Assembly: GCF_024223415.1 (NCBI RefSeq)
Contig: NZ_CP100500.1
Origin: Escherichia coli
Lineage (GTDB): Bacteria > Pseudomonadota > Gammaproteobacteria > Enterobacterales > Enterobacteriaceae
DNA length: 64,000 nucleotides
Reading direction: 5' to 3' (one strand)
Of this stretch, positions 57,478-58,785 are shown piece after piece. The position numbers were made by a program. The number at the start of each line of letters is the position of its first letter. Position 1 is the stretch's first letter.

Positions 57478-58785
57478 TACGGAGGGTGCGGGAATTTGTA
57501 GGCCTGATAAGACGCGCAATGAACTGCACCCCAAATGTTGGACATAATCTGACATCTGAAGGTGCAGTTTATGAAACATTCATTTGAAGTAAAACTTGCC
57601 GCTGTAAATCATTACCTGGCCGGTCATGCAGGCATCATTTCTACGGCAAAACTCTTTCAACTTTCTCACACCAGCCTCTCACACTGGATTAATCTTTTTC
57701 TTCTTCACGGTCCTCAGGCACTGGATTGCAGACACAAGCGTAGCTATTCTCCTGAAGATAAACTTTGCGTGGTTCTTTATGCTCTCGGGCATTCTGAGTC
57801 TCTACCCCGGGTAGCTGCCCGGTTTAACATTCCCAGCCACAACATGGTTAAAAACTGGATAAAAGGCTACCGCAAATCTGGTAATGAGGCCTTTATCAGG
57901 CGCAGGAAGGAGAAAAGCATGACCCGTTCTGATGATACCCATGAAAACGAGGCAAACATGACGCCGGAAGAGATGAAGAATGAGCTGCGTTATCTTCGCG
58001 CAGAAAATGCATATCTGAAAGCCATGCAGGAGCATCTCCTGGAAAAAAAGCGCCAGGAGCTGGAGAAAAAACGAAAGTCATCCAGAGCCTGAAGTGCGGA
58101 CACTGCCAGTCTGACCTGTTAAAGGCTGCAGGGCTGGCCAGAAGCACGCTGTACTACCAGCTGTCACTGCAGAAGGCTAAGGACAAGTATGCTGATGTGA
58201 AACAGCTCATAGCCTCCATCTTCCATGAACACCGGGGATGTTATGGGTACCGGCGGATCCATTGTGAGCTTCAGAAAAGAGGTCTTAAGTTCAGTGGCAA
58301 AACGGTGCGAAAACTGATGCAACAGCTCGGCCTGAAGTCTCCTGTGCGCCTGAAGAAATACCGGTCTTACCGGGGAAATATGGGACTCGCTGCAGAAAAT
58401 ATCCTTCAGCGGCAGTTCAAAGCGGAAGCTCCCTGTGAGAAATGGGTGACAGATATCACCGAATTCAGGGCTGGCGGACAAAAACTGTACCTGTCCCCGA
58501 TACTTGATTTGTTTAACGGGGAAATCGTGGCGTGGGAAACTGCCTGCAGGCCTACAGAGGAGCTGGTGAAGCGCATGTTAAATAAGGGGCTGGAAAGCCT
58601 TGCAGAAGGAGAAAAACCGCTGCTCCACAGTGATCAAGGGTGGCATTACCGGATAAAAAGTTATCAGTCTGCCCTGGCAGACAAAGGGTTAGTGCAGAGC
58701 ATGTCGCGCAAGGGCAACTGCCTTGATAATGCGGTAATGGAGAATTTCTTTGGTCACCTGAAAGAAGAAATGTACTATCGCCGGG

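What the first reader, a model, noticed from the sequence alone, without database searches (positions are those of the whole stretch)
58044..58050. IS150 programmed -1 frameshift site present and intact in both copies
Both copies retain the A-AAA-AAG slippery heptamer at the orfA/orfB overlap (also at about 25189-25196 on the minus strand in copy 1), and both encode identical OrfA and OrfB proteins. The elements are therefore probably transposition-competent and recently related, consistent with their role in the inversion.
Basis: partly seen in the sequence, partly recalled or inferred. Interest (0 to 1): 0.25.

Follow-up and report, generated by a model that had tools for sequence, protein, structure and literature searches.

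The report
IS1397 pair with intact frameshift site

Summary
The sequence observation holds. AAAAAAG lies at 58044-58050 (+) and 25189-25195 (-), in the A_AAA_AAG phase of orfA, inside the 107-nt orfA/orfB overlap. It sits in two 1432-bp elements (57520-58951 + and 24288-25719 -) that are 100% identical.

The name is wrong. The element is IS1397, a REP-targeting member of the IS3 family. Identical DNA is annotated in RefSeq as [quoted passage not shown]. K-12 IS150 shares no useful nucleotide similarity with it (OrfA 27%, OrfB 50.5% identity).

All parts needed for transposition are intact: TG...CA inverted repeats, orfA, orfB, D295/D355/E391 with DD(35)E spacing, an SD-like AGGAG upstream and a predicted 38-nt hairpin downstream.

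The inversion link is well supported.
- The target-site duplications are swapped between the copies (a GCAA pair and a CCA pair).
- K-12 shows the interior 31.8 kb flipped relative to the flanks.
- Five close relatives (KV7, NCTC10444 and others) carry both copies at the same two REP sites, un-inverted, with matched duplications.
- None of 5,426 complete E. coli genomes has the inverted junction.

Frameshifting and transposition activity are inferred, not shown. The finding is ordinary, already known biology and of low interest.

The parts
57520..58951 (+). IS1397 copy 2 (1432 bp), between yjdN-side and gltP-side REP halves
   Evidence: Ends defined by the exact 1432-bp inverted match. 100% identical to RefSeq-annotated IS1397 copies.
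24288..25719 (-). IS1397 copy 1 (1432 bp), between yjdM-side and yjcO-side REP halves
   Evidence: Exact reverse-complement match to copy 2.
58044..58050 (+). Slippery heptamer A_AAA_AAG, copy 2
   Evidence: In phase with orfA. Conserved in 58/66 relatives.
25189..25195 (-). Slippery heptamer A_AAA_AAG, copy 1
57571..58092 (+). orfA copy 2 (173 aa plus stop; HTH domains)
   Evidence: Pfam HTH_28 4.8e-17. The start equals the RefSeq CDS start on identical DNA.
58050..58919 (+). orfB reading frame used after the -1 slip, copy 2 (frame open from 57984). OrfAB = 57571-58050 joined to 58050-58919, 449 aa.
   Evidence: Pfam rve/rve_2/HTH_21. NCBIfam transpos_IS3 330.6 bits against a cut-off of 160. 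The RefSeq joined CDS has the same span.
25147..25668 (-). orfA copy 1
   Evidence: Identical DNA.
24320..25189 (-). orfB frame after the slip, copy 1
   Evidence: Identical DNA.
58028..58032 (+). [quoted passage not shown] The mirror in copy 1 is 25207-25211 (-).
   Evidence: Sequence. Falls within the 6-17 nt rule of PMC4066793. Kept in 3 of 4 E. coli variants and in the Pantoea relative, lost in L090.
58054..58091 (+). Predicted 38-nt imperfect hairpin starting at the 4th nt after the heptamer (candidate downstream stimulator). The orfA stop TGA 58090-58092 overlaps its 3' arm. The mirror in copy 1 is 25148-25185 (-).
   Evidence: dG -13.1 kcal/mol. The 50-nt fold has z = -3.1. It ranks 24th of 1395 38-nt windows in the element. 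One natural A>G change keeps the pair as G-U.
57520..57544 (+). IRL copy 2 (TGAACTGCACCCCAAATGTTGGACA). IRL of copy 1 is 25695-25719 (-).
   Evidence: 21/25 match to the IRR reverse complement, TG...CA termini.
58927..58951 (+). IRR copy 2 (...TGTCCAGGTTTTGGGGTTCAGTTCA). IRR of copy 1 is 24288-24312 (-).
58452..58742 (+). Catalytic triad codons D295 (58452-58454), D355 (58632-58634), E391 (58740-58742), with K at E+7
   Evidence: D-59-D-35-E spacing computed. Lies within the Pfam rve match.
57516..57519 (+). GCAA, half of the site-A target-site duplication (left flank of copy 2)
24284..24287 (-). GCAA, the other half of the site-A duplication (right flank of copy 1)
   Evidence: Joining the two flanks gives a 66/66 match to K-12 4326294-4326359.
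58952..58954 (+). CCA, half of the site-B duplication (right flank of copy 2)
25720..25722 (-). CCA, the other half of the site-B duplication (left flank of copy 1)
25720..57519 (.). 31,800-bp segment (yjcO, fdhF, mdtPON, yjcS, sugar cluster, phnP-C, yjdN) inverted relative to its flanks
   Evidence: K-12 alignment orientations. NCTC10444 and KV7 comparisons. GC-skew sign change.

Best explanation
The window holds two identical, inverted copies of IS1397. This is a 1432-bp insertion sequence of the IS3 family (IS150 subgroup) that inserts into the loops of REP/palindromic units.

In each copy, ribosomes translating orfA reach A_AAA_AAG. A fraction of them slip back one base with the two lysyl-tRNAs. 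They then continue in the orfB frame and make the 449-aa OrfAB DDE transposase. Ribosomes that do not slip terminate 14 codons later and make the 173-aa OrfA.

An SD-like AGGAG upstream and a 38-nt hairpin starting 4 nt downstream are the likely stimulators.

Shown here:
- element identity and boundaries;
- motif, phase and conservation of the slippery site;
- intact ORFs, DDE triad and inverted repeats;
- REP-loop insertion with 3-4 bp duplications.

Inferred from family knowledge: that frameshifting actually occurs, its efficiency, the role of the stimulators, and transposition activity.

Separately, homologous recombination between the two inverted copies flipped the 31.8 kb between them. 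This happened in an ancestor that already carried both insertions.
For: Identity:
- A 1432-bp query is 100% identical to copies annotated 'IS3-like element IS1397 family transposase / programmed frameshift' in nine complete genomes. Full-length copies occur in 1707 of 5426 genomes.
- NCBIfam transpos_IS3 scores 330.6 bits against a cut-off of 160. Pfam finds HTH_28, HTH_21, rve and rve_2.

Frameshift site:
- The heptamer is in phase inside the 107-nt overlap.
- 58 of 66 IS150-group elements with the -1 layout have in-phase A_AAA_AAG in the overlap, and 5 more have A_AAA_AAA.
- A_AA.A_AA.G is among the most efficient -1 motifs in E. coli (PMC4066793).
- AGGAG and the hairpin meet that paper's empirical stimulator rules.

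Competence:
- TG...CA inverted repeats match at 21 of 25 positions.
- D295, D355 and E391 have 35-residue D-E spacing and K at E+7.
- The same exact sequence occurs at other loci in other strains, for example between yjjV and yjjW.

REP targeting:
- Both copies sit in GACGC|loop|GCGTC of Z-type palindromic units.
- The literature states that IS1397 inserts specifically into REPs (PMC1525189; PMC3184786).

Inversion:
- The duplications are swapped between the copies.
- Orientations against K-12 are -, +, -.
- Five relatives have both copies un-inverted with matched GCAA/GCAA and CCA/CCA duplications.
- The computationally un-inverted window is collinear with KV7 at 99.98% identity.
- GC skew is negative in the flanks and positive in the interior.
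Against: - No experiment or read data here shows OrfAB production or transposition.
- The hairpin is modest (0.34 kcal/mol/nt, below the IS3-family mean of 0.45 quoted in PMC4066793). It is supported by only one one-sided substitution, and no compensatory pair was available.
- The SD-like motif is lost in one natural variant (L090) and also encodes Gln-Glu, so its conservation may be due to coding.
- The primary IS1397 papers could not be read.
- The inverted order is seen in none of 5,426 complete genomes. It could therefore be an assembly mis-orientation across identical repeats.
Confidence: 0.9

Rival explanations
1. The elements are IS150.
For: Same IS3-family subgroup and the same A_AAA_AAG motif at nearly the same element position (525 against 530). 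Similar size (1432 against 1443 bp) and similar terminal bases.
Against: Against K-12 IS150 there are only short blastn patches (best 70 nt at 77%). OrfA is 27% and OrfB 50.5% identical. RefSeq names identical DNA IS1397. The length is 1432, not 1443 bp. The REP-loop target is the reported habit of IS1397.
Confidence: 0.01
2. OrfAB is made mainly by RNA polymerase slippage on the A7 run (insertion of one A into the mRNA), not by ribosomal frameshifting.
For: A run of seven A is present. Transcriptional realignment is a known alternative in some IS elements (my knowledge; not tested here).
Against: The motif is kept as a phased heptamer ending in G in 58/66 relatives rather than as a longer A run. 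From established knowledge, efficient transcriptional slippage generally needs runs of about 9 or more. Candidate ribosomal stimulators flank the site.
Confidence: 0.05
3. The inverted order of 25720-57519 is an assembly artefact (mis-orientation between two identical 1.4-kb inverted repeats) or a mixed population, not a fixed inversion.
For: 0 of 5,426 complete E. coli genomes show the yjdM-IS-yjcO junction, while five close relatives have the un-inverted order. A segment bounded by perfect inverted repeats is the classic case an assembler cannot orient without spanning reads.
Against: IS-IS recombination inversions are common in E. coli: about 70% of large rearrangements in the long-term evolution experiment (PMC4173774). 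The window is otherwise a clean, near-identical relative of KV7. The sequence cannot distinguish the two possibilities.
Confidence: 0.1
4. The inversion arose in one step by intramolecular transposition of a single IS1397 copy into the second REP. This would also leave split duplications and an inverted second copy.
For: The flank pattern (each duplication split between the two copies) is the same as expected for a replicative intramolecular inversion (inference).
Against: Five relatives at 99.9% or greater identity already carry both insertions at exactly these positions, with matched direct duplications and K-12-like gene order. Both insertions therefore predate the inversion. IS3-family elements use copy-out-paste-in through circles, not cointegrate-type replicative transposition (PMC3219604 abstract).
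Confidence: 0.03
5. The copies look intact but are not mobile in this host (silent or tightly repressed), so 'transposition-competent' overstates the case.
For: No sigma-70-like promoter was found upstream of orfA by the consensus scan. Relatives show decay, for example the S51 gltP copy with an internal stop. Both insertions have stayed at the same sites across at least six strains.
Against: All coding and terminal features are intact. The exact same sequence is at different loci in other genomes, with 2-11 places per genome. IS1397 is reported active in K-12 (title of Clement et al. 1999, cited).
Confidence: 0.1

Closest known systems
IS1397 (E. coli, IS3 family, IS150 subgroup; Bachellier 1997 and Clement 1999, cited in PMC1525189)
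   Same: 100% nucleotide identity to RefSeq-annotated IS1397 copies. 1432 bp, orfA/orfB with a programmed -1 frameshift, insertion into REP/palindromic-unit loops, and 3-4 bp duplications.
   Different: Nothing detected. This is the element itself. Only the two insertion sites and the inversion between them are strain-specific.
IS150 (E. coli K-12 insJ/insK, 1443 bp)
   Same: Same subgroup and architecture. Identical A_AAA_AAG motif at a near-identical position, with a hairpin predicted downstream, DDE transposase made as an OrfAB fusion, and TG...CA ends.
   Different: No useful nucleotide similarity. OrfA 27% and OrfB 50.5% identity. 11 bp longer. Different inverted repeats. Not REP-specific.
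IS911 / IS3 / dnaX -1 frameshift signals (PMC4066793)
   Same: A_AAA_AAG heptamer with an upstream SD-like element and/or a downstream structure starting 4-10 nt after the motif. [quoted passage not shown]
   Different: The stimulators here are only predicted. The hairpin is weaker than the IS3 pseudoknot, and no pseudoknot was sought or found. No Rfam frameshift-element family matches.
IS-mediated inversions by homologous recombination (for example IS150/IS1 inversions in the long-term evolution experiment, PMC4173774; mutation-accumulation lines, PMC5009759)
   Same: Two inverted identical IS copies bound the inverted segment, and the flanking duplications are exchanged.
   Different: Small (31.8 kb), not symmetric about the origin or terminus, mediated by IS1397, and found in a natural lineage rather than in the laboratory.

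Membership tests
IS1397 | Near-identity (isoform level) to sequences named IS1397 | tested here: met
   1432/1432 identity to nine RefSeq copies annotated 'IS3-like element IS1397 family transposase'. The ISfinder reference itself was not available, so the test is against RefSeq naming.
IS1397 | Length about 1432 bp with imperfect terminal inverted repeats | tested here: met
   1432 bp. Inverted repeats match at 21/25 positions, TG...CA termini. The published length is from my memory; the primary paper was not readable.
IS1397 | Insertion into REP / palindromic units of BIMEs | tested here: met
   Both copies split GTAGGCCTGATAAGACGC|loop|GCGTCGCATCAGGC. Reconstructed empty site A matches a K-12 BIME unit 66/66. 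Specificity is stated in PMC1525189 and PMC3184786.
IS1397 | Demonstrated transposition activity of this copy | not testable with these tools
   Needs a genetic assay.
IS3 family | Transposase matching the IS3 profile above the curated cut-off, with an rve (DDE) core | tested here: met
   NF033516 330.6 bits against 160. PF00665 1.3e-21. D295/D355/E391 with DD(35)E spacing and K at +7.
IS3 family | Two overlapping ORFs in frames 0 and -1 with a slippery motif in the overlap | tested here: met
IS3 family | 3-4 bp target-site duplication | tested here: met
   GCAA (4 bp) and CCA (3 bp), seen as direct repeats in NCTC10444 and other relatives and as swapped halves in the window.
IS3 family | -1 frameshifting actually produces OrfAB | not testable with these tools
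   Needs a reporter assay, mass spectrometry or ribosome profiling.
IS150 | Sequence identity to IS150 (K-12 3720633-3722075) | tested here: not met
   Only short blastn patches. OrfA 27% and OrfB 50.5% identity.

The most novel reading that the evidence does not exclude
The 31.8-kb block bounded by the two perfect inverted IS1397 copies may be a recurrently flipping segment in this lineage rather than a one-off fixed inversion. Flipping would re-orient about 30 mostly head-on genes (phn operon, fdhF, mdtNOP) to be co-directional with replication. It would also split the REP325/naRNA4 BIME array between two loci, with consequences for expression or nucleoid organisation.
Probability: 0.04. Interest if true: 0.35.

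Novelty: already known. Interest (0 to 1): 0.1.

Why it matters
It matters little beyond correct annotation. The element should be called IS1397, not IS150. Its frameshift site is the textbook IS3-family signal that RefSeq already annotates.

The useful by-product is a clean, sequence-level demonstration that a strain-specific 31.8-kb inversion arose by recombination between two pre-existing IS1397 insertions. The evidence is the swapped duplications, an exact empty-site reconstruction, and five un-inverted relatives. The inversion is absent from 5,426 complete genomes, so it is a handy lineage marker and a flag for checking the assembly.

Tried and rejected
- Primary IS1397 papers (PMC94167, PMC95333, PMC169884, PMC135288) are not held. 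Published length, duplication size and any frameshift experiments could not be quoted.
- An Rfam scan of the element found no frameshift-element family. It found only a naRNA4/REP match in the flank and chance-level hits.
- The promoter/terminator scan found nothing convincing for orfA.
- Covariation support for the hairpin was not achievable. E. coli variants are about 98% identical, with a single one-sided change. The next relative (Pantoea, 65% nucleotide identity) has a different downstream sequence. The genome-contig scan returned only relatives at 39-57% protein identity, apart from one internally deleted E. coli IS1397 copy (L041).
- Gene conversion as the reason the two copies are identical was considered and dropped. 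Relatives each carry a different private single-base change (C626T in four gltP-side copies, C150T in the KV7 yjdM-side copy). The window simply keeps the ancestral sequence in both copies.
- Tandem Repeats Finder on two intergenic stretches gave nothing.
- A possible second slippery site (GAG AAA AAA CGA at 58062-58073) and the AAAAAAG in orfB (58846) were rejected because they are out of phase.

Full report
**Observation.** AAAAAAG occupies 58044-58050 on the + strand and 25189-25195 on the - strand. The orfA ATG is at 57571, so the 0-frame reads ...CTC CTG GAA AAA AAG CGC... This puts the motif in the canonical A_AAA_AAG phase.

The -1 frame is open from element position 465, and orfA stops at element position 571. 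The motif (element position 525) therefore lies inside a 107-nt orfA/orfB overlap. Slipping there gives a 449-aa OrfAB (...LLEKK|APGAGEK...). Not slipping gives a 173-aa OrfA.

The heptamer alone is unremarkable. There are 19 matches in the window against 11.5 +/- 3.4 in shuffles, and four of the 19 come from the two IS copies. What lifts it above chance is phase and place. About 35 in-phase positions at roughly 1.5e-4 per position give about 0.005 expected (my arithmetic). Conservation, described below, adds to this. The second AAAAAAG in each copy (58846-58852 and 24387-24393) is out of phase in orfB.

**The two copies.** The repeat finder reported a 1457-nt inverted pair. That figure includes about 22 nt of similar REP flank on one side. 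The element proper is 1432 bp, at 57520-58951 (+) and 24288-25719 (-), and the copies are identical at all 1432 positions.

The ends are TG...CA, with inverted repeats matching at 21 of 25 positions.

**Identity: IS1397, not IS150.** A megablast of the 1432 bp against 5,426 complete E. coli genomes found nine listed copies at 100% identity. All but two of the 25 listed hits are annotated "IS3-like element IS1397 family transposase". Full-length copies occur in 1,707 genomes. The RefSeq CDS on identical DNA is a two-piece join flagged "programmed frameshift", with the same start and end as my OrfAB.

I fetched the authentic IS150 of K-12 (3720633-3722075, insJ/insK) and compared it. Only short nucleotide patches align, the best being 70 nt at 77%. 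OrfA is 27% identical and OrfB 50.5%.

The two elements share architecture and even the position of the slippery site (525 against 530). They are nonetheless different insertion sequences.

Family membership is solid:
- NCBIfam transpos_IS3 scores 330.6 bits against a cut-off of 160.
- Pfam finds HTH_28 in OrfA, and HTH_21, rve and rve_2 in OrfB.
- The catalytic residues are D295, D355 and E391, with 35 residues between the second D and E, and K at E+7.

**Frameshift signal anatomy.** Sharma et al. 2014 (PMC4066793) report that A_AA.A_AA.G is among the most efficient -1 motifs in E. coli. They also give empirical rules for stimulators. [quoted passage not shown] A hairpin of 17-140 nt should start 4-10 nt after the motif, be closed by a G-C pair plus at least three further pairs, and have an unfolding energy of at least 7.6 kcal/mol.

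Here AGGAG lies at 58028-58032, 12 nt before base 2 of the motif. A 38-nt imperfect hairpin at 58054-58091 (dG -13.1 kcal/mol, C-G closed) starts at the fourth nucleotide after the motif.

Support for the hairpin:
- The 50-nt downstream segment folds better than 198 of 200 shuffles (z = -3.1).
- The hairpin ranks 24th of 1,395 38-nt windows in the element. It is 0.17 kcal/mol/nt above the local average.
- The orfA stop codon (58090-58092) overlaps its 3' arm.

The evidence for function is weak. At 0.34 kcal/mol/nt the hairpin is below the IS3-family mean of 0.45 quoted in that paper. Natural E. coli variants at about 98% identity offer only one informative change, an A>G in the 3' arm that turns A-U into G-U (L088, L090). 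One variant (L090) has lost AGGAG. Both stimulators therefore remain predictions.

**Conservation of the site.** A scan of 100,044 species genomes returned 80 loci. Apart from one internally deleted E. coli IS1397 copy (L041), they encode relatives at 39-57% protein identity, from Bacillales, Pseudomonas, Burkholderia and others.

I mapped OrfA and OrfB onto each locus. With the window copy and K-12 IS150 included, 66 elements have the 0/-1 layout. Of these:
- 58 carry in-phase A_AAA_AAG in the overlap;
- 5 carry A_AAA_AAA;
- 3 have no X_XXY_YYZ motif.

Nine other loci showed OrfA and OrfB in a single frame. Several loci come from the same genome, so these counts are not independent. Even so, the motif is clearly a conserved feature of the subgroup.

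**Target and duplications.** Both copies interrupt the loop of a Z-type palindromic unit (GTAGGCCTGATAAGACGC | loop | GCGTCGCATCAGGC). This is the reported habit of IS1397 (PMC1525189; PMC3184786).

Read in IS orientation, the flanks are:
- copy 2: ...GACGCGCAA | IS | CCAGCGTC...
- copy 1...GACGCACCA | IS | GCAAGCGTC...

Neither copy has matching flanks, but the flanks match across copies, giving a GCAA pair and a CCA pair. I joined the left flank of copy 2 to the right flank of copy 1 and removed one GCAA. The result is a 66-nt sequence that matches K-12 4326294-4326359 at 66 of 66 positions. That stretch is the last unit of the yjdN-yjdM BIME array.

**The inversion.** Three segments of the window align to K-12 as follows:
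- window 1-24287 aligns to K-12 4350601>4326320 (minus orientation);
- window 25724-57519 aligns to K-12 4296306>4325923 (plus orientation);
- window 58954-64000 aligns to K-12 4295849>4290803 (minus orientation).

So the 31,800 bp between the IS copies (yjcO through yjdN) is flipped relative to both flanks.

NCTC10444 has IS1397 at exactly these two sites in the un-inverted order: crfC-yjdM-[IS -]-yjdN-phn...fdhF-yjcO-[IS +]-gltP. Its duplications are matched, GCAA/GCAA and CCA/CCA. NCTC9112, S51, KV7 and O78 strain 3 have the gltP-side copy with CCA/CCA. One search shows that they also have the yjdM junction.

Flipping 25720-57519 in silico makes the window collinear with KV7 at about 99.98% identity. 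The only differences are 13 mismatches and one length difference at a palindromic intergenic repeat.

GC skew is negative in both flanks and mostly positive inside the segment, as expected for a recent flip.

No place in any of the 5,426 complete genomes covers the yjdM-IS-yjcO junction. The inversion is therefore private to the source strain, or it is an assembly mis-orientation, which sequence alone cannot exclude.

A one-step intramolecular transposition would leave the same flank pattern. It is disfavoured because both insertions clearly predate the inversion in the relatives. In addition, IS3-family elements transpose by copy-out-paste-in (PMC3219604 abstract). IS-IS recombination is the usual source of such rearrangements in E. 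coli (PMC4173774).

**Relatedness of the copies.** The relatives each carry one private difference between their two copies. Four gltP-side copies have C626T, with S51 also carrying C587A, which gives an internal stop. The KV7 yjdM-side copy has C150T. The window has the unmutated sequence in both copies. Identity here reflects recency, and no gene conversion needs to be invoked.

**Verdict.** Transposition competence and frameshifting are well-founded inferences but were not demonstrated here. The result is known biology that public pipelines already annotate, so interest is low.

Noticed in passing
window 57401-57477 (and the BIME units at 57338-57519 and 24209-24287): The REP units next to copy 2 match Rfam naRNA4 (RF02564, 106 bits on the - strand). 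K-12 has six 100-bp tandem BIME units between yjdN and yjdM. This lineage has about four fewer units (396 bp). IS1397 sits in the last unit, and the inversion now splits the array between two loci.
   Followed up: partly
window 36180-45540: The K-12 als operon/rpiB region is replaced by a block of about 9.4 kb with no K-12 match. In NCTC10444 and KV7 this block is annotated as a hybrid sensor kinase, a sugar ABC transporter, D-lyxose/D-mannose isomerase, an aldolase, a kinase and a response regulator.
   Followed up: no
window 54834-54923: A GC-rich imperfect palindrome (37-nt arms, 86% complementary) lies between phnD and phnE. It causes overlapping BLAST alignments and a small length difference against KV7, NCTC10444 and K-12.
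   Followed up: partly
window 25720-57519: Most genes in the flipped block (yjcO, fdhF, mdtPON, yjcS, phnP-C, yjdN) are on the minus strand in K-12 at 4.30-4.33 Mb. The inversion reverses their orientation relative to the flanks, and by inference relative to the replication fork.
   Followed up: no
L092 (E. coli S51) 3305-4736: The gltP-side IS1397 copy in S51 carries C587A, annotated as an internal stop. The same insertion is decaying in a sister strain while both copies in the window are intact.
   Followed up: partly
L041 (E. coli SCPM-O-B-8794) about 1450-2370: An IS1397 copy with a 193-bp internal deletion (element positions 469-661) that removes the frameshift site.
   Followed up: no
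L011-L017, L019, L021-L027 and other Bacillales loci: Twenty-four relatives have overlapping tandem slippery motifs, T_TTA_AAA_AAG (in-phase TTTAAAA immediately followed by AAAAAAG).
   Followed up: no
L006-L008, L018 (Pseudomonas asuensis), L035/L049 (Ensifer), L042, L047: In these relatives the best OrfA and OrfB matches fall in the same frame. In the Pseudomonas loci (L006-L008, L018, L042) the frame stays open across both parts, so they look like fused single-ORF transposases that need no frameshift; the Ensifer loci and L047 do not show one continuous frame. This rests only on my frame-mapping script.
   Followed up: no
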